Below are positions 6,594 through 64,000 of a DNA stretch of 64,000 nt, one piece after another. Source of the DNA: Eledone cirrhosa (Eukaryota); the NCBI GenBank assembly GCA_964016885.1, contig OZ024742.1, forward strand, positions 187,240,001 to 187,304,000, read 5' to 3'. The notes under the pieces were generated by a model that was given only the letters and a program-made list of their open reading frames with translations, had not been told where the DNA came from and ran no database searches. Both the position numbers and the translations under genes were made by a program. Positions within the stretch are counted from its first letter, which is position 1. Every line of letters starts with the position of its first letter.

Positions 6594-6705
6594 GTTGTAA
6601 TAGAATGAAACGAAATTTCATTTCTCACTCTTAGTACGGCACTTACTTAAATGTAAGTATGTATGTATACGTACATACATATATGTATACAGACGTACAG
6701 TAGCA

Positions 6706-6775
<70 letters not shown>

Positions 6776-6777
<2 letters not shown>

Positions 6778-7056
6778 CAGGTACACATATATATATGTAC
6801 ATATCAGTTCAGCGGTCGTTTATTATAACGCCCGCTTTGTCCGTTTGTAAACAAACGGACAGCCTGATTTATGCCGTACGGTGTTAAGGCAACCACGTCA
6901 CCTTTTTGTTCAACACTGACACAGGAACGATGAACTAGTTTCAAGCTTCTTAGCTATCATCAGCACCGTATACCCTTCTGCACAAACGGACAAAGCGGGC
7001 GTTATAATAAACGTCCGCTAAACTGATACGTACATATATATATATGTGTACCTGTA
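6776..7056. repeat. Short HHR-bearing element with ~75-bp inverted termini in (AT)n
   Basis: TACAGGTACAC..CAGTTCAGCGGTCGTTTATTATAACGCCCGCTTTGTCCGTTTGT is mirrored at 6982-7056. The body is homologous to 13390-13560. Confidence 0.8.
6927..6969 (-). ncRNA. Minimal type-I hammerhead ribozyme motif (family A)
   Basis: Minus strand: acggug CUGAUGA uagcu-aaga-agcuu GAAAC ua GUU caucgu. Stem I is acggug/caucgu; stem III is the palindromic ACUAGU. Confidence 0.75.
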
Positions 7057-7231
7057 TATATATATATATATTAGAATTGGAGCTCTGAAATAGCAATATA
7101 TATATGGATGTATATATAATGTATTTTGCAATACACTTTATGCTTAATTAAAAGCATTTTGAAGACCGTATGCTATTGTTTTAGAGTAGTGACAAATTCA
7201 CTTACTTTAATCTCAGCAAACAGGGGAGATA

Positions 7232-7277
7232 AGCCGACAAGGCCTTGTTTCGCTTCTGTTGAAGCTTATGAAGGCTA
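7232..7277 (-). ncRNA. Hammerhead motif family B, inactivated copy (G5C)
   Basis: Minus strand: agcc UUCAUAA gcuuc-aaca-gaagc GAAAC aaggccuu GUC ggcu. Confidence 0.6.
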
Positions 7278-7699
7278 ACTACCCCTCCTGTCTACTGAGA
7301 TTACTGATGTTATATTCTTATAGAATTCTAGTAAATAATCAGGGACTGATTATACAGAGTTATTGTTGGTCAGGCAGAAATTAAAAATTAGAATTGGAGT
7401 TCTGAAATAGCAATATATCGGCTTATCTCCCCTGTTTGCTGAGATTAAATTAAGTGAATTTGTCACTACTCTAAAACAATAGCATACGGTCTTCAAAATG
7501 CTTTTAATTAAGCATAAAGTGTATTGCAAAATACATTATATATACATCCATATATATATATTGCTATTTCAGAGCTCCAATTCTAATTTTTAATTTCTGC
7601 CTGACCAACAATCGCTCTGTATAATCAGTTCCTGATTATTTACTAGAATTCTATAAGATAATATAACATCAATAATCTCAGTAGACAGGAGGGGTAGTT

Positions 7700-7744
7700 A
7701 GCCTTGATAAGCTTCAACAAAAGCGAAACAAGGCCTTGTCGGCT
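7700..7744 (+). ncRNA. Hammerhead ribozyme motif with U3-A8 core (family B)
   Basis: agcc UUGAUAA gcuu-caacaa-aagc GAAAC aaggccuu GUC ggcu. Palindromic stem III is ACAAGGCCUUGU. Confidence 0.75.
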
Positions 7745-7936
7745 TATCTCCCCTGTTTGCTGAGATTAAAGTAAGTGAATTTGTCACTACTCTAAAACAA
7801 TAACATACGGTCTTCAAAATGCTTTTAATTAAGCATAAAGTTAATTGCAAAATACATTATATATACATCCATATATATATATATGCATGCTACTCTACGT
7901 CCGTATACATATATGTATGTACGTATACATACTTAC

Positions 7937-7999
<63 letters not shown>

Positions 8000-13165: not shown

Positions 13166-13560
13166 AAGCTTATTAGCTATCGTCAGCGTCGTATACCTTC
13201 CTGCCAGATGATTGAACGTCTGAAAGTATATACCTTCCTTATGCATTTCGTTTCATTTTTTCCATTTATATTTTTCGGTGCACTAACTCACTCGATATGC
13301 AAATTAGGCTGCTCAGCCGTTAATATGCATAAGGAAAGTATATACTTTAAAACGTTCAATCATCTGGCAGGATTCAGACCTTCAATCATCATACGATGCT
13401 GACGATAGCTAATAAACTTGAAACTAGTACATCGTTCCTTTGTCAGTGTTGAACAAAAGGGCAACGATTGTTGCTAAACACTGTACAGCTTAATTCGGGA
13501 TGATTATTTACAAACAAACCGAGCATTATAATAAATGTTCGGTAAACCCATACGTACATA
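13163..13560 (+). mobile_element. HHR family A element with 5' inverted duplication
   Basis: 13165-13247 is the reverse complement of 13323-13422 and includes the 5' half of the ribozyme. The 3' part is homologous to the minus strand of 6790-6980. Ends in (AT)n. Confidence 0.75.
13393..13435 (+). ncRNA. Minimal type-I hammerhead ribozyme motif (family A)
   Basis: acgaug CUGACGA uagcu-aaua-aacuu GAAAC ua GUA caucgu. Stem I is a perfect 6 bp. Confidence 0.78.
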
Positions 13561-13654
13561 TATATATGTGTGCATGTATGTATATATATACATACTACTG
13601 TACGTCTGTATACATATGTGTATGTACGTATACATACTTATATATATATATATT

Positions 13655-48423: not shown

Positions 48424-48474
<51 letters not shown>

Positions 48475-48505
48475 AGATTAAAAGATGGTTAAAAGAGTTC
48501 CATGT

Positions 48506-48574
48506 ATTTTATTATGCGCATTTCAAAAACAAATATCATCATGCAATAACATTTGCGTTTTCGTCAGATAAAAT
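48506..48574 (-). ncRNA. Hammerhead ribozyme motif, AUA triplet (mirror copy)
   Basis: Reverse complement of 48688-48756. Confidence 0.75.
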
Positions 48575-48687
48575 ATGGAGACATGATATGAAGGTTAAAA
48601 CACACTTGTGAATAGTGCAGTTTTAAATCAACATATTAAAACTGCACTATTAACAAGTGTGTTTTAACCTTCATATTATGTCTCCCT

Positions 48688-48756
48688 ATTTTATCTGACG
48701 AAAACGCAAATGTTATTGCATGATGATATTTGTTTTTGAAATGCGCATAATAAAAT
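48688..48756 (+). ncRNA. Hammerhead ribozyme motif, AUA triplet (family D)
   Basis: auuuuau CUGACGA [14-bp stem II] GAAA ugcgc AUA auaaaau. Stem I is a perfect 7 bp; stem III is the palindrome AUGCGCAU. Confidence 0.75.
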
Positions 48757-48883
48757 ACATGGAACTCTTTTAACCGTCTTTTAATCTTATATATTATTTA
48801 TACTCCAGTCCTACAAACTGTAGAGTGCTTCTTATCCGATATCTTCATTGCTTTATTGTACTACAATAAAACTCACCTCCTAC

Positions 48884-48948
<65 letters not shown>

Positions 48949-50984: not shown

Positions 50985-51266
50985 ACATCAACAGCAACAG
51001 CAACAGCAATAACAACAGTAATAACAACCAAAGATAACAACAGCACTAACGATAACAACAACAGCGCCAGCAACAATAGAAGCAGCAACAACGACAACAA
51101 CAACAACAACAACAACAGCAACAACAACAACAACAAGAGTAGCAAAAGTAATAATAGCAACAGCAGCAACAACATTGATAACAGTAACAGTAACAACAAC
51201 AAGAACAACAATAACAAAAACAACAACAATAACAACAAGAGTAGCAACAATAATAATAACAACAGC

Positions 51267-51318
<52 letters not shown>

Positions 51319-54300
51319 GTATCAACAGTAATAATAACAACAGCAGCAACAACATCAATTACAATAACAGCCATAACAACAACAACAACGATAAGAACAA
51401 CAATAATCACAACAGCGACAGCAGTAAAAACAAAATGAACAAAAATAATTACAACAGCAGCAATAACAACAACATGAACAACAAAAACACAATGAATCAC
51501 ATTAATAACAGCAACAGTAACACTAACAACAATTATATAATAACAACAACAACAGCAGCAACAACAACAGTAACAACAACAACAGCAACAACAACAACAG
51601 TAACAATAACAACAGCAGCAACAACAATAACAATAACAATAATTACAATAACAACAACAGCAGCAATGATATGAACAACAACAACAACAACAACAACAAC
51701 AAAGCCAATCACAACAACACCAACAGCAACAGTCACAATAACAAAACCAATCACAACAACACCAACAACACCAATCACAATAACAACATCAATAACAACA
51801 ACACCAACAACAACAATCACTATAACAACATCAATAACAACAACAACAACAACAACAATCACAATAACAACATCAATAACAACACCTACAACACCAATCA
51901 CAATAACAACATCAATAACAACAACACCAACAACACCAATCACAATAACAACATCAATAACAACAAGACCAACAACACCAATCACAATAACAACATCAAT
52001 AACAACAACACCAACAACACCAATCACAATAACAACATCAACAACAAGAACACCAACAACAACAATCACATAACAACATCAATAACAACAACACCAACAA
52101 CAACAATCACAATAACAACATCAATAACAACAACACCAACAACAATCACAATAACAACATCAACAACAATAACACCAACAACAACAATCACAATAACAAC
52201 ATCAACAACAACAACACCAACAACAACAATCACAATAACAACATCAATAACAACAACACCTACAACAACAATCACAATAACAACATCAATAACAACAACA
52301 CCAACAACAACAACAAAAACACCAACAACAACAATCACAATAACAACAACGCCAACAACACCAATCACAATAACAACATCAATAACAACATCAATAACAA
52401 CACCAATCACAATAACAACATCAATAACAACAACACCAACAACACCAATTACAATAACAACATTAATAACAACAACACCAACAACAACAATCACAATAAC
52501 AACATCAACAACAACACCACCAACAACAACAACCACAATAATAACAACACCAACAACAATACCAACAACAACAACAACACAATCAACAACAACACCAACA
52601 ACAACAATCACAATAACAACATCAATAACAACAAGACCAACAACACCAATCATAATAACAACATCAACAACAACAACACCAACAACAACAATCACAATAA
52701 CAACATCAACAACAACAACACCAACAACACCAATCACAATAACAACATCAACAACAACAACAATCACAATAACAACATTAATAACAACAACACAACAACA
52801 ACAATTGCAATAAAAACATCAATAACAACACCAACAGCAACAATCACTATGATAACATCAATAACAACAGCACCAACAACAACAATCACAATAACAACAT
52901 CAACAACAACAACACCAACAACAACAATCACAATAACAACATCAACAACAACAACACCAGCAACCACAATCACAATAACAACATCAATAACAACAACACC
53001 AACAACCACAATCACAATAACAACATCAACAACAACAACACCAACAACACCAATCACAATAATAACATCAACAACAACAACACCAACAACACCAATCACA
53101 ATAACAACATCAATAACAACAACAACACCAACAATCACAATAACAACATCAATAACAACAACACCAACAACACCAATTACAATAACAACATCAATAACAA
53201 CACCAACAACAACAACACCAACAATCACAATAACAACATAAATAACAACAACACCAACATCCACAATCACAATAACAACATCAACAACAACAACACCAAC
53301 AACACCAATCACAATAACAACATCAACAACAACAACACCAACAACACCAATCACAATAACAACATCAATAACAACAACAACACCAATAATGACAATACCA
53401 ACATCAATAACAACAACACCAACAACACCAATTACAATAACAACATCATCAACAACAACAACAACAACAACAACACCAACAATCACAATAACACCATCAA
53501 TAACAACAACACCAACATCCACAATCACAATAACAACATCAACAACAACAACACCAACAACACCAATCACAATAAGAACATCAACAACAACAACACCAAC
53601 AACACCAATCACAATAACAACATTAATAACAACAACAACACCAACAATCACAATAACAACATCAACAACAACAACACCAACAACACCAATCACAATAACA
53701 ACATCAATAACAACAACAACACCAACAATCACAATAACAACATCAATAACAACAACACCAACAACACCAATCACACTAACAACATCAATAACAACAACAC
53801 CAACAACACCAATTACAATAACAACATCAATAACAACAACACCAACAACACCAATCACAATAACAACATCAATAACAACAACACCAACGACACCAATCAC
53901 AATAACAACATCAATAACAACAACACCAACAACACCAATCACAATAACAACATCAATAACAACAACAACAACGACAACAACAACAACAATCACAAAAACA
54001 ACATCAATAACAACAACACCAACAACAACAATCGCAATAACAACATCAATAACAACAACACCAACCACAACTATCACAATAACAACATCAACAACAATAA
54101 CACCAACAACACCAATCACAATAACAACATCAATAACAACACCAACAACACCAATCACAATAACAACATCAACAACAACAACACCAACAACAACAATCAC
54201 AATAACAACATCAATAACAACAACACCAACAACAACAATCACAATAACAACATCAATAACAACAATACCAACAACAATCACAATAACAACATCAATAACA

Positions 54301-54680
54301 ACAACACCAACAACACCAATCACAATAACAACATCAATAACAACAACACCAACAACACTAATCACAATAACAACATCAATAACAACAACACCAACGACAC
54401 CAATCACAATAACAACATCAATAACAACAACACCAACAACACCAATCACAATAACAACATCAATAACAACAACACCAACAACACCAACAACACCAACAAA
54501 ACCAATCACAATAACAACATCAATAACAACAACACCAACGACACCAATCACAATAACAACATCAATAACAACAACACCAACAACAACAATCGCAATAACA
54601 ACATCAATAACAACAACACTAACAACAACAATCACAATAATAACATCAATAACAACAACACCAACAACAACAATAGCAAT

Positions 54681-54711
<31 letters not shown>

Positions 54712-56438
54712 CCAATCACAATAACAACATCAACAACAACAACACCAACAACAACAATCACAATAACAACATCAATAACAACAACAACAACACCAATCAC
54801 AATAACAACATCAATAAGAACAACACCAACGACACCAATCACAATAACAACATCAATAACAACAACACCAACGACACCAATCACAATAACAACATCAATA
54901 ACAACAACACCAACAACAACAATCGCAATAACAACATCAACAACAACAACACCAACAACACCAGTCACAATAACAACACCAACAACAACAATCACAATAA
55001 CAACATCAATAACAGCACCAACAACACTAAACACAATAACAACATCAACAACAACACCAACAACACCTGTCACAACAACATCAACAACAACAATCACAAT
55101 AACAACATCAATAACAACAACACTAACAACACACACAATATCAACATCAATAACAACAACACCAACAACAACACCAAACACAATAACAACATCAACAACA
55201 ACAACACCAACAACACCAATCACAATAACAACATCAATAATACCGATACCAACAACAACAATCACAATAACAACATCAATAACAACAACACCAACAACCA
55301 CAATCACAATAACAACATCAATAACAACAACACCAACAACCACAATCACAATAACAACATCAACAACAACAACACCAACAACACCAATCACAATAACAAC
55401 ATCAACAACAACAACACCAACAACAACAATCACAATAGCAACATCAATAACAACAACACCAACAACACCAATCACAATAACAACATCAATAACAACAACA
55501 ACACCGACAATCACAATAACAACATCAATAACAACAACAACAAAAACAATCACAATAACAACATCAATAACAACAACACCAACAACAACAATCACAATAA
55601 CAACATCAACAACAACAACACCAACAACCACAATCACAATAACAACATCAATAACAACAGCACCAACAACAACAATCACAATAACAACATCAACAACAAC
55701 AACACCAACAACAACAATCACAATAACAACATCAACAACAACAACACCAACAACCACAATCACAATAACAACAACAATAACAACAACACCAACAACCACA
55801 ATCACAATAACAACATCAACAACAACAACACCAACAACACCAATCACAATAATAACATCAACAACAACAACACCAATCACAATAACAACATCAATAACAA
55901 CAACAACACCAACAATCACAATAACAACATCAATAACAACAACACCAACAACACCAATTACAATAACAACATCAATAACAACACCAACAACAACAACAAC
56001 ACCAACAATCACAATAACAACATAAATAACAACAACACCAACATCCACAATCACAATAACAACATCAACAACAACAACACCAACAACACCAATCACAATA
56101 ACAACATCAACAACAACGACACCAACAACACCAATCACAATAACAACATCAATAACAACAACAACACCAATAATGTCAATACCAACATCAATAACAACAA
56201 CACCAACAACACCAATTACAATAACAACATCATCAACAACAACAACAACAACGACAACACCAACAATCACAATAACACCATCAATAACAACAACACCAAC
56301 ATCCACAATCACAATAACAACATCAACAACAACAACACCAACAACACCAATCACAATAAGAACATCAACAACAACAACACCAACAACACCAATCACAATA
56401 ACAACATTAATAACAACAACAACACCAACAATCACAAT

Positions 56439-56469
<31 letters not shown>

Positions 56470-56737
56470 CCAATCACAATAACAACATCAATAACAACAA
56501 CAACACCAACAATCACAATAACAACATCAATAACAACAACACCAACAACACCAATCACACTAACAACATCAATAACAACAACACCAACAACACCAATTAC
56601 AATAACAACATCAATAACAACAACACCAACAACACAAATCACAATAACAACATCAATAACAACAACACCAACGACACCAATCACAATAACAACATCAATA
56701 ACAACAACACCAACAACACCAATCACAATAACAACAT

Positions 56738-56769
<32 letters not shown>

Positions 56770-58841
56770 ATCACAAAAACAACATCAATAACAACAACAA
56801 CAATGACAACAACAACAACAATCACAAAAACAACATCAATAACAACAACACCAACAACAACAATCGCAATAACAACATCAATAACAACAACACCAACCAC
56901 AACTATCACAATAACAACATCAACAACAATAACACCAACAACACCAATCACAATAACAACATCAACAACAACAACACCAACAACAACAATCACAATAACA
57001 ACATCAATAACAACAACACCAACAACAACAATCACAATAACAACATCAATAACAACAATACCAACAACACCAATCACAATAACAACATCAATAACAACAA
57101 CACCAATAACACCAATCACAATAACAACATCAATAACAACAACACCAACAACACCAATCACAATAACAACATCAATAACAACAACACCAACGACACCAAT
57201 CACAATAACAACATCAATAACAACAACACCAACAACACCAATCACAATAACAACATCAATAACAACAACACCAACAACACCAATCACAATAACAACATCA
57301 ATAACAACAACACCAACAACAACAATCGCAATAACAACATCAACAACAACAACACCAACAACACCAGTCACAATAACAACACCAACAACAACAATCACAA
57401 TAACAACATCAATAACAGCACCAACAACACTAAACACAATAACAACATCAACAACAACACCAACAACACCTGTCACAACAACATCAACAACAACAATCAC
57501 AATAACAACATCAATAACAACAACACTAACAACACACACAATATCAACATCAATAACAACAACACCAACAACAACACCAAACACAATAACAACATCAACA
57601 ACAACAACACCAACAACACCAATCACAATAACAACATCAATAATACCGATACCAACAACAACAATCACAATAACAACATCAATAACAACAACACCAACAA
57701 CCACAATCACAATAACAACATCAATAACAACAACACCAACAACCACAATCACAATAACAACATCAACAACAACAACACCAACAACACCAATCACAATAAC
57801 AACATCAACAACAACAACACCAACAACAACAATCACAATAGCAACATCAATAACAACAACACCAACAACACCAATCACAATAACAACATCAATAACAACA
57901 ACAACACCGACAATCACAATAACAACATCAATAACAACAACAACAAAAACAATCACAATAACAACATCAATAACAACAACACCAACAACAACAATCACAA
58001 TAACAACATCAACAACAACAACACCAACAACCACAATCACAATAACAACATCAATAACAACAGCACCAACAACAACAATCACAATAACAACATCAACAAC
58101 AACAACACCAACAACAACAATCACAATAACAACATCAACAACAACAACACCAACAACCACAATCACAATAACAACATCAATAACAACAACACCAACAACC
58201 ACAATCACAATAACAACATCAACAACAACAACACCAACAACACCAATCACAATAATAACATCAACAACAACAACACCAATCACAATAACAACATCAATAA
58301 CAACAACAACACCAACAATCACAATAACAACATCAATAACAACAACACCAACAACACCAATTACAATAACAACATCAATAACAACACCAACAACAACAAC
58401 AACACCAACAATCACAATAACAACATAAATAACAACAACACCAACATCCACAATCACAATAACAACATCAACAACAACAACACCAACAACACCAATCACA
58501 ATAACAACATCAACAACAACGACACCAACAACACCAATCACAATAACAACATCAATAACAACAACAACACCAATAATGTCAATACCAACATCAATAACAA
58601 CAACACCAACAACACCAATTACAATAACAACATCATCAACAACAACAACAACAACGACAACACCAACAATCACAATAACACCATCAATAACAACAACACC
58701 AACATCCACAATCACAATAACAACATCAACAACAACAACACCAACAACACCAATCACAATAAGAACATCAACAACAACAACACCAACAACACCAATCACA
58801 ATAACAACATTAATAACAACAACAACACCAACAATCACAAT

Positions 58842-58872
<31 letters not shown>

Positions 58873-59140
58873 CCAATCACAATAACAACATCAATAACAA
58901 CAACAACACCAACAATCACAATAACAACATCAATAACAACAACACCAACAACACCAATCACACTAACAACATCAATAACAACAACACCAACAACACCAAT
59001 TACAATAACAACATCAATAACAACAACACCAACAACACAAATCACAATAACAACATCAATAACAACAACACCAACGACACCAATCACAATAACAACATCA
59101 ATAACAACAACACCAACAACACCAATCACAATAACAACAT

Positions 59141-59172
<32 letters not shown>

Positions 59173-62100
59173 ACAATCACAAAAACAACATCAATAACAA
59201 CAACAACAATGACAACAACAACAACAATCACAAAAACAACATCAATAACAACAACACCAACAACAACAATCGCAATAACAACATCAATAACAACAACACC
59301 AACCACAACTATCACAATAACAACATCAACAACAATAACACCAACAACACCAATCACAATAACAACATCAACAACAACAACACCAACAACAACAATCACA
59401 ATAACAACATCAATAACAACAACACCAACAACAACAATCACAATAACAACATCAATAACAACAATACCAACAACACCAATCACAATAACAACATCAATAA
59501 CAACAACACCAATAACACCAATCACAATAACAACATCAATAACAACAACACCAACAACACCAATCACAATAACAACATCAATAACAACAACACCAACGAC
59601 ACCAATCACAATAACAACATCAATAACAACAACACCAACAACACCAATCACAATAACAACATCAATAACAACAACACCAACAACACCAACAACACCAACA
59701 AAACCAATCACAATAACAACATCAATAACAACAACACCAACGACACCAATCACAATAACAACATCAATAACAACAACACCAACAACAACAATCGCAATAA
59801 CAACATCAATAACAACAACACTAACAACAACAATCACAATAATAACATCAATAACAACAACACCAACAACAACAATAGCAATAACGACATCAACAACAAC
59901 AACAACAACAACACCAATCACAATAACAACATCAACAACAACAACACCAACAACAACAATCACAATAACAACATCAATAACAACAACAACAACACCAATC
60001 ACAATAACAACATCAATAACAACAACACCAACGACACCAATCACAATAAAAACATCAATAACAACAACACCAACGACACCAATCACAATAACAACATCAA
60101 TAACAACAACACCAACAACAACAATCGCAATAACAACATCCACAACAACAACACCAACAACACCAGTCACAATAACAACACCAACAACAACAATCACAAT
60201 AACAACATCAATAACAGCACCAACAACACTAAACACAATAACAACATCAACAACAACACCAACAACACCTGTCACAACAACAACACCAACAACAATCACA
60301 ATAACAACATCAATAACAACAACACTAACAACACACACAATATCAACATCAATAACAACAACACCAGCAACAACACCAAACACAATATCAAGATCAACAA
60401 CAACAACACCAACAACACCAATCACAATAACAACATCAATAATACCGATACAAACAACAACAATCAGAATAACAACATCAATAACAACAACACCAACAAC
60501 CACAATCACAATAACAACATCAACAACAACAACACCAACAACACCAATCACAATAACAACATCAACAACAACAACACCAACAACAACAATCACAATAGCA
60601 ACATTAATAACACCAATACCAACAACACCAATCACAATAACAACATCAATAACAACAACACCGACAATCACAATAACAACATCAATAACAACAACAACAA
60701 CAACAATCACAATAACAACATCAATAACAACAACACCAACAACAACAATCGCAATAAAAACACCAATAACAACCACACCAACAACAACTATCACAATAAC
60801 AACATTAACAACAACACCAACAACACCAATCACAATAACAACATCAATAACAACACCAACAACACCAATCACAATAACAACATCAACAACAACAACACCA
60901 ACAACAACAATCACAATAACAACATCAATAACAACAACACCAACAACAACAATCACAATAACAACATCAATAACAACAACACCAACAACACCAATCACAA
61001 TAACAACATCAATAACAACAACACCAACAACACCAATCACAATAACAACATCAATAACAACAACACCAACGACACCAATCACAATAACAACATCAATACC
61101 AACAACACCAACAACACCAATCACAATAACAACATCAATAACAACAACACCAACAACACCAACAACACCAACAACACCAATCACAATAACAACATCAATA
61201 ACAACAACACCAACGACACCAATCACAATAACAACATCAATAACAACAACACCAACAACACCAATCACAATAACAACATCAATAACAACAACACCAACAA
61301 CACCAACAACACCAACAAAACCAATCACAATAACAACATCAATAACAACAACACCAACGACACCAATCACAATAACAACATCAATAACAACAACACCAAC
61401 AACAACAATCGCAATAACAACATCAATAACAACAACACTAACAACAACAATCACAATAATAACATCAATAACAACAACACCAACAACAACAATAGCAATA
61501 ACGACATCAACAACAACAACAACAAAAACACCAATCACAATAACAACATCAACAACAACAACACCAACAACAACAATCACAATAACAACATCAATAACAA
61601 CAACAACAACACCAATCACAATAACAACATCAATAACAACAACACCAACGACACCAATCACAATAACAACATCAATAACAACAACACCAACGACACCAAT
61701 CACAATAACAACATCAATAACAACAACACCAACAACAACAATCGCAATAACAACATCAACAACAACAACACCAACAACACCAGTCACAATAACAACACCA
61801 ACAACAACAATCACAATAACAACATCAATAACAGCACCAACAACACTAAACACAATAACAACATCAACAACAACACCAACAACACCTGTCACAACAACAA
61901 CACCAACAACAATCACAATAACAACATCAATAACAACAACACTAACAACACACACAATATCAACATCAATAACAACAACACCAGCAACAACACCAAACAC
62001 AATATCAACATCAACAACAACAACACCAACAACACCAATCACAATGACAACATCAATAATACCGATACAAACAACAACAATCACAATAACAACATCAATA

Positions 62101-64000
62101 ACAACAACACCAACAACCACAATCACAATAACAACATCAATAACAACAACACCAACAACCACAATCACAATAACAACATCAACAACAACAACACCAACAA
62201 CACCAATCACAATAACAACATCAACAACAACAACACCAACAACAACAATCACAATAGCAACATCAATAACAACAATACCAACAACACCAATCACAATAAC
62301 AACATCAATAACAACAACACCGACAATCACAATAACAACATCAATAACAACAACAACAACAACAATCACAATAACAACATCAATAACAACAACACCAACA
62401 ACAACAATCGCAATAAAAACACCAATAACAACCACACCAACAACAACTATCACAATAACAACATCAACAACAACACCAACAACACCAATCACAATAACAA
62501 CATCAATAACAACACCAACAACACCAATCACAATAACAACATCAACAACAACAACACCAACAACAACAATCACAATAACAACATCAATAACAACAACACC
62601 AACAACAACAATCACAATAACAACATCAATAACAACAACACCAACAACACCAATCACAATAACAACATCAATAACAACAACACCAACAACACCAATCACA
62701 ATAACAACATCAATAACAACAACACCAACGACACCAATCACAATAACAACATCAATACCAACAACACCAACAACACCAATCACAATAACAACATCAATAA
62801 CAACAACACCAACAACACCAACAACACCAACAACACCAATCACAATAACGACATCAATAACAACAACACCAACGACACCAATCACAATAACAAAATCAAT
62901 AACAACAACACCAACAACAACAATCGCAATAACAACATCAATAACAACAACACCAACAACAACAATCACAATAATAACATCAATAACAACAACACCAACA
63001 ACACCAATCACAATAACAACATCAACAACAACAACAACACCAACAACAACAATCGCAATAACAACATCAACAACAACAACACCAACAACAACACCAAACT
63101 CAATAACAACATCAACAACAACAACACCAACAACACCAGTCACAATAACAACAACACCAACAACACCAATTACAATAACAACATCAATAACAACAACATC
63201 AACAACACCAATTACGATAACAACATCAATAACAACAACACCAATAACACCAGTCACAATAACAACATCAACAACAATCACAATAACAACATCAATAACA
63301 ACAACACCAACAACACCAGTCACAACAACAACACTACCAACAATCACAATAACAACATCAATAACAACAACACTAACAACACACACAATATCAACATCAA
63401 TAACAACAACACCAACAACAACACCAAACACAATAACAACATCAACAACAACAACAACAGCAATCACAATAACAACATCAATAACCCCAATACCAACAAC
63501 AACAATCACAATAACAACATCAATAACAACAACACCAACAACCACAATCACAATAACAACATCAACAACAACAACACCAACAACACCAATCACAATAACA
63601 ACATCAATAACAACAACACCAACAACCACAATCACAATAACAACATCAATAACAACAACACCAACAACCACAATCACAATAACAACATCAACACCAACAA
63701 CACCAACAACACCAATCACAATAACAACATCAATAACAACAACAACACCAACAATCACAATAACAACATCAATAACAACAACACCAACAACAACAATCAC
63801 AATAACAACATCATCAACAACAACACCAACAACACCAATCACAATAACAACATCAATAACAACAACACCAACAACACCAATCACAATAACAACATCAACA
63901 ACAACAACACCAACAACAACAATCACAATAACAACATCAACAACAACAACACCAACAATCTCAATAACAACATCAATAACAACAACACCAACAATACCAA
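50985..64000 (+). repeat. >13-kb (ACA)-derived satellite: ~42-bp unit (TTPTTPITITTSIT-like) with kb-scale higher-order repeats; runs off the window end
   Basis: Unit ACAACACCAACAACACCAATCACAATAACAACATCAATAACA. The diagnostic variant GCACCAACAACACTAAAC occurs at 55015, 57418, 60217 and 61834. A TCA>TAA variant occurs at 53239, 56023 and 58426. Confidence 0.95.

What the first reader, a model, noticed from the sequence alone, without database searches (positions are those of the whole stretch)
7071..7875. 321-nt retrozyme monomer whose boundaries are exactly the ribozyme cleavage site
Seen: the plus-strand copy begins at 7420 with GGCTTATCTCC, immediately 3' of the predicted GUC cleavage site, and runs 321 nt to the next GUC (7738-7740) before repeating. 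An inverted ~1.1-mer sits head-to-head with it. Inference: the insertion was copied from a self-cleaved (possibly circular) 321-nt RNA, with the 5' inversion typical of Penelope-type integration. This is a genomic footprint of in vivo cleavage.
Basis: partly seen in the sequence, partly recalled or inferred. Interest (0 to 1): 0.75.

Follow-up and report, generated by a model that had tools for sequence, protein, structure and literature searches.

The report
Penelope-type retrozyme pair, coincidental boundary
This is one of hundreds of copies of a small repeat carrying a predicted self-cutting RNA, likely pasted in by Penelope-like transposon enzymes; its start beside the predicted cut site is chance, since other copies start anywhere.

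Summary
The 321-nt repeat, its hammerhead ribozyme and the head-to-head inverted copy are real. The claimed footprint of cleavage is not.

The plus copy starts 1-2 nt before the predicted cut site, and none of the other three arm ends lies there. In 47 position-ordered loci (79 arms), 5' ends are uniform around the unit: 0 at the site, 1 within 2 nt, 1.2 expected. Genome-wide, junctions at the site are no commoner than at a control site.

The 3' ends are what is fixed: 73 of 79 end either in the unit's (AT)n tract or after a 26-37 nt tail, almost all running into host (AT)n. Of 31 head-to-head pairs, 28 have one arm of each kind and none has two alike. This is the known Penelope-like signature: random 5' truncation, inverted copy, one-sided tail.

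The ribozyme has a U3-A8 core and compensatory changes in all three stems. Arms reach 6.5 units, so the template was a circle or an uncut multimer; which one is unresolved.

Verdict: a new family of non-LTR retrozymes (non-autonomous Penelope-type elements). The near-strict one-start-per-arm rule is the only mildly new detail.

The parts
7418..7882 (+). Plus arm, 1.45 units; 5' end at unit position 320-321 (TC before GGCT), 3' end merging with (AT)n, no tail
7070..7418 (-). Inverted arm, about 1.1 units; unit position 137 round to 168; carries the tail
7673..7768 (+). Type I hammerhead: long stem I with GUU bulge, core TTGATAA 7704-7710 (U3-A8), stem II 7711-7724, GAAA 7725-7728, stem III 7728-7739; predicted cut between 7740 and 7741
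   Evidence: sequence; fold; covariation
7208..7303 (-). Hammerhead of the inverted arm; core reads TTCATAA (G5C at 7270), likely dead (G5 being invariant is recalled knowledge); predicted cut between 7236 and 7235
   Evidence: TTCATAA in 1 of 104 sampled hammerheads
7418..7419 (.). Head-to-head junction, 1 nt microhomology (T7418); C7419 matches C17
7070..7095 (-). 26-nt tail (unit 143-168), followed by host (AT)n
7550..7587 (+). Internal (AT)6 tract (unit 131-142) and internal copy of the tail (143-168): the two fixed 3'-end positions of the family
6648..7069 (.). Left part of the host repeat (63-nt segment, (AT)n, imperfect 277-nt palindrome, (AT)n); likely target of the insertion
   Evidence: similar arrangement without a retrozyme in L058 and L026
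7883..7945 (.). Right part of the host repeat (inverted copy of 6648-6710)

Best explanation
The locus is a head-to-head pair of randomly 5'-truncated copies of a non-coding 321-nt hammerhead repeat, likely made when a Penelope-like enzyme nicked both strands of an (AT)n tract and reverse-transcribed the repeat's RNA twice. Shown: fixed 3' ends at two sites, uniform 5' ends, one tail-less and one tailed arm per pair, (AT)n flanks, junction microhomology, arms longer than one unit, arms of one locus more alike than copies of different loci. Inferred: one strand primes in the RNA's (AU)n tract and the other 26-37 nt further on, at the tail end; each run copies a circle or uncut multimer for a random length; the two cDNA 3' ends join through a few matching bases and fill each other in. 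The start beside the cut site is coincidence. Self-cleavage and circularisation are predicted, untested.
For: 5' ends uniform: 0 of 79 at the site, 1 within 2 nt against 1.2 expected. 3' ends: 36 at 138-143, 37 at 165-180, 6 elsewhere, nearly all followed by (AT)n. Pairs: 28 of 31 mixed, 0 alike, 3 with an end elsewhere; second set 12 of 16 mixed, 1 alike, 3 other (wider tract class 118-143; includes this locus). Either arm may be the longer (medians 366 and 377 nt, p = 0.90), so neither is a copy of the other. Microhomology of 2 nt or more in 25 of 46 junctions against 20% simulated. 47 of 79 arms exceed 321 nt, the longest 2102. Divergence 2.2-2.5% between neighbouring units and same-register arms (3.0-3.1% in two offset comparisons) against 5.0% between loci. 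98.8% of cells paired; double-sided changes in stems I, II and III. Long RT plus GIY-YIG open frames (796 aa or more) exist in this genome. Same signature described for Penelope-like elements (PMC8557442; PMC11167929).
Against: No autonomous element with a related terminal repeat was found; only one family (30 loci) was checked and it did not match. One pair (L015) has two tract-type ends. 15 of 46 junctions have extra bases rather than overlap, and the microhomology count took the best of several anchors. 17 of 79 arms have no inverted partner. Target duplications cannot be read in (AT)n. In vitro, the one enzyme studied showed no strand difference in start site, so the one-of-each rule has no shown cause. 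Covariation counts involve related sequences, and only 3 pairs change on both sides.
Confidence: 0.85

Rival explanations
1. One reading: this copy was made from a self-cleaved linear monomer, and reverse transcription ran off its 5' end at the cut.
For: The plus arm starts within 2 nt of the predicted site; the hammerhead looks selected for structure.
Against: The arm includes the base 5' of the cut, and it crosses an intact site at 7740, which a linear monomer cannot template without a jump. No excess of such ends in the family. For the one Penelope-like enzyme tested, cleavage was not needed and no RNA reads began or ended at the site (PMC11167929).
Confidence: 0.07
2. The template is specifically a ligated 321-nt RNA circle copied by rolling-circle reverse transcription, as proposed for retrozymes. 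This is a sub-case of the best explanation.
For: Arms up to 6.5 units; units of one locus equally alike in and out of register (11 against 13 loci, p = 0.83; minority-allele sharing 8/4847 in register against 18/11257 out). Circles are shown for other animal retrozymes (PMC7229834).
Against: An uncut homogeneous multimer predicts the same. L097 has two variants shared in register by both arms, as a mixed multimer would give. Many shared sites are alignment noise at loop III, so that test is weak.
Confidence: 0.5
3. The inverted arm and the tail arise at DNA level, by fold-back synthesis or by endonuclease resolution of an intermediate, not from a second RNA-templated start.
For: PMC8557442 attributes the tail to endonuclease-mediated resolution. 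L062 and L065 are near-perfect fold-backs.
Against: Arm lengths and 5' positions look independent, and either arm can be several times longer than the other. Two near-equal starts in 31 pairs is close to chance (about 1 expected). Later in vitro work maps the tail between two reverse-transcription starts.
Confidence: 0.12

Closest known systems
Non-LTR retrozymes of animals (PMC7229834; bioRxiv 10.64898/2026.07.22.740005)
   Same: Non-coding unit in the 150-450 nt range, type I hammerhead, tandem copies, low GC, co-occurrence with Penelope-like elements.
   Different: Mostly dispersed head-to-head pairs in (AT)n with two fixed 3' ends; U3-A8 core; 5-bp stem III and 23-bp distal stem I, where most animal type I motifs have a 1-2 bp helix III (PMC4209133). 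RNA circle not shown here.
Penelope-like element insertions (PMC8557442; Poseidon of the green anole, PMC11167929)
   Same: 5' truncation, partial tandems, inverted 5'-truncated copy, tail at one end only, (TA)n or AT-rich targets, hammerhead in the repeat.
   Different: No reading frame. One of the two 3' ends lies in an (AT)n tract that matches the target, whereas the anole element started at a non-homologous AC-rich site. Partner element not identified.
Twin-primed L1 insertions (recalled, not looked up)
   Same: Head-to-head junction with microhomology from priming on both target strands.
   Different: Here both 3' ends are at fixed sites and the two arms overlap in sequence; there is no poly(A).

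Membership tests
Type I hammerhead ribozyme | Core CUGANGA...GAAA...UH with a 3-8 base pair | tested here: met
   TTGATAA...GAAA...GTC; U3-A8 in 25 of 25 aligned copies; U3-A8 is a described natural, active covariant (PMC3088659)
Type I hammerhead ribozyme | Stems I, II and III, with stem I open | tested here: met
   98.8% of cells paired, one double-sided change in each stem; structure drawn by hand, the minimum-energy fold differs at stem III
Type I hammerhead ribozyme | Match to an Rfam hammerhead model | tested here: not met
   0 matches at gathering scores in the window; no E-value search run
Type I hammerhead ribozyme | Self-cleavage after C17 | not testable with these tools
   needs in vitro transcription
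Non-LTR retrozyme | Tandem non-coding unit of 150-450 nt with a type I hammerhead | tested here: met
   unit about 316-321 nt, arms up to 6.5 units; no frame of 200 aa or more between 5220 and 10229
Non-LTR retrozyme | Two consecutive complete hammerheads (the preprint's 'active' criterion) | tested here: inconclusive
   not met at this locus (one complete motif per arm); met at other loci such as L096 and L061
Non-LTR retrozyme | Expressed as linear and circular monomers | not testable with these tools
   no RNA run available to lay
Non-LTR retrozyme | Target-site duplication | tested here: inconclusive
   both flanks are (AT)n
Penelope-type insertion | Random 5' truncation | tested here: met
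Penelope-type insertion | Inverted 5'-truncated copy at the 5' end | tested here: met
   31 pairs in 47 loci
Penelope-type insertion | 30-40 nt tail at one end only | tested here: met
   26-37 nt beyond the tract; 28 of 31 pairs one-sided
Autonomous Penelope-like element | Encodes RT and GIY-YIG endonuclease | tested here: not met
   no such frame in the element; such frames exist elsewhere in the genome
Non-autonomous derivative of a named Penelope-like family | Sequence shared with an autonomous element's terminal repeat | tested here: inconclusive
   one family checked, no match; other families not checked

The most novel reading that the evidence does not exclude
Penelope-type integration is obligately two-handed and asymmetric: the enzyme primes both target strands on one RNA circle, one strand by pairing with the RNA's own (AU)n tract and the other at the tail end, so each complete insertion uses each start exactly once. 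The family would also be a natural, abundant U3-A8 hammerhead able to cut as a monomer.
Probability: 0.4. Interest if true: 0.55.

Novelty: new member of a known kind. Interest (0 to 1): 0.3.

Why it matters
The claim that a genomic boundary records ribozyme cleavage in vivo fails, which removes the main reason for interest. What remains is a tidy, young family showing that an animal retrozyme carries the full Penelope integration signature. That is insertion-level support for the retrozyme-Penelope link, which the papers read argue from co-occurrence and sequence kinship. The near-strict pairing of the two 3' ends (40 mixed, 1 alike, 6 other among 47 pairs in two samples) gives a sharp prediction for the in vitro Penelope system, where no strand difference was seen.

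Tried and rejected
1. 5' pile-up at the cut site: rejected. A second control site (85 hits) was too noisy with subfamily variants to count junctions. Control hits were classed by eye from 8 upstream bases; their loci were not fetched.

2. Short deletions ending at the cut site as a trace of ligation or template jumps. Six copies (5 independent events) plus one fold-back looked enriched against a BLAST-based background of 0.2 expected. A matched pattern search found 25 deletions of 3 nt or more in a 16-nt control spacer, and none of that size in loop II. The rate varies widely by site and the BLAST background was too low, so this is not evidence. One search used a gap as long as the intact spacer and served only as a partial denominator (1069).

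3. Circle against multimer by register: unresolved.

4. Penelope-like frames next to arms (L002, L003, L006, L065) as the partner: no shared junction among loci; treated as neighbours.

5. Flanking inverted segment as part of the element: it is a separate common repeat.

6. RNA evidence: no RNA holder listed. Four contig runs were laid and add nothing on ends or expression.

7. Earlier findings of the scan: none.

8. Paper searches for 'retrozyme, head-to-head, insertion, truncat' and 'hammerhead, U3A8, C3G8' found 0 papers; one search listed 12 of 19 papers, none with 'twin priming'. These searches do not cover most subscription journals.

Full report
Observation. The window lies in a 3.0-Gb, microsatellite-rich genome; that it is an animal is inferred. 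Numbering the 321-nt unit from G7420, the plus arm covers unit 320 to 142 of the second unit (7418-7882) and the minus arm covers 137 round to 168 (7418-7070), head-to-head. The TC at 7418-7419 matches the TC of the GTC before the next unit, so the plus arm starts 1-2 nt upstream of the predicted cut. T7418 is shared by both arms. The arm does not end at the next GTC either. A full unit bounded by two cut sites exists in any tandem longer than one unit, so it carries no information.

The ribozyme. 7673-7768 folds far better than shuffles (z = -6.8). The core is TTGATAA, a U3-A8 swap of the usual C3-G8 pair, reported as natural and active (PMC3088659, passages). It is the family norm: U3-A8 in 25 of 25 aligned copies, with 98.8% of cells paired and one double-sided change in each of stems I, II and III. 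The 25 were picked by me from the 104 hammerheads, one per locus; related sequences inflate such counts. Rfam gave no hit at gathering scores. The inverted arm's core has G5C, seen in 1 of 104 sampled motifs. Cleavage was not tested.

The family. The 24-mer starting at the cut site occurs 1547 times exactly. The first 100 listed matches fall in 47 loci on one contig, so roughly 700 loci by extrapolation. I fetched all 47 and mapped 79 arms, dropping one duplicated pair and arms under 85% identity. 5' ends are uniform: 0 at the site, 1 within 2 nt (1.2 expected), 3 within 10 nt (5.2 expected); KS p = 0.30. The 30 best-scoring loci show the same scatter.

Genome-wide test. A pattern demanding three mismatches upstream of the site gave 12 hits: 4 clear 5' junctions including this one, 1 fold-back, 6 short deletions and 1 duplication. 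Three of the 4 junctions carry C17. The same design at unit position 78 gave 15 hits among at least 2426 units. There is no pile-up.

What is fixed. 36 of 79 3' ends lie in the unit's (AT)n tract (138-143) and 37 lie at 165-180, after a tail of 26-37 nt; nearly all run into host (AT)n. Of 31 head-to-head pairs, 28 have one arm of each kind, none has two alike, and 3 have an end elsewhere. A second set gave 12 mixed, 1 alike and 3 other of 16. This locus obeys the rule. Junctions show microhomology of 2 nt or more in 25 of 46 cases against 20% simulated; 15 have extra bases. 47 of 79 arms exceed one unit and 19 exceed two. Arms and units of a locus differ by 2.2-3.1%, loci by 5.0%. Here the pair sits in an (AT)n tract of a common palindromic repeat that occurs elsewhere without it.

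Mechanism. Shown: the end geometry above. Inferred: a Penelope-like RT-endonuclease nicks both strands of (AT)n; each 3' end primes on the repeat RNA, one in the (AU)n tract and one at the tail end; each run stops at random; the cDNA ends anneal by a few bases and fill in. Arms that cross intact cut sites need a circle or an uncut multimer. Register tests could not separate these, and L097 leans to a mixed multimer. Long RT plus GIY-YIG frames are present in the genome, but the one family checked does not share its terminal repeat with this unit.

Against my own lead. Short deletions ending at the cut site first looked enriched. A matched control found 25 such deletions at an unrelated site, so I dropped the idea.

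Comparison. PMC8557442 (passages) describes 5' truncation, an adjacent inverted copy, a 30-40 bp tail often at one end only, and (TA)n targets. PMC11167929 (abstract, main text and part of the methods) maps the tail between two internal reverse-transcription starts, finds no strand difference, finds hammerhead cleavage unnecessary in vitro, and finds no reads ending at the cut. PMC7229834 (passages and discussion) shows circles for other animal retrozymes and names Penelope-like elements as likely partners. The 2026 preprint 10.64898/2026.07.22.740005 (parts 1-3 of 5, abstract to discussion) argues the same from phylogeny. PMC4209133 (passages) notes opposite-strand hammerhead pairs 100-700 bp apart and proposes circular templates. 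I read no supplements; those of the preprint are closed and could list this family. L1 twin priming and the essential role of G5 are recalled.

Verdict. A new family of a known kind. The one-start-per-arm rule puts numbers on a known feature; I did not find it stated as a rule. Interest 0.3.

Noticed in passing
window 48460-48900: A second, unrelated hammerhead-like family as a head-to-head pair (motifs at 48695 + and 48567 -, arms 95% alike). One arm stops at (AT)n and the other runs on, like a one-sided tail. The same family's end flanks L031, L070 and L074.
   Followed up: partly
window about 42756 (-): A third hammerhead-like motif from a simple pattern scan.
   Followed up: no
window 6648-7056, 7883-7945 and about 13390-13650: Common palindromic AT-rich repeat with inverted ends, MITE-like; found in many fetched loci.
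   Followed up: partly
window 50985-63994: 13-kb CAA-rich satellite, period about 126, with extreme strand skew.
   Followed up: no
L124, L136, L139, L140: Young Penelope-like family with a long RT plus GIY-YIG open frame (796 aa) followed by a TA/TG-microsatellite-rich stretch; copies 96-98% identical over the part searched.
   Followed up: partly
L097:2216-3879: Both arms share two stem III variants only in their 3'-most hammerhead, as a mixed multimer template or arm-to-arm conversion would give.
   Followed up: partly
L072:16-436: An 80%-identical older relative of the unit with the same 168 end followed by (AT)n.
   Followed up: no
L089 (minus strand): Reading frame with an SH3-like start near a copy of the repeat (domain name recalled, not searched); possibly a host exon.
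   Followed up: no
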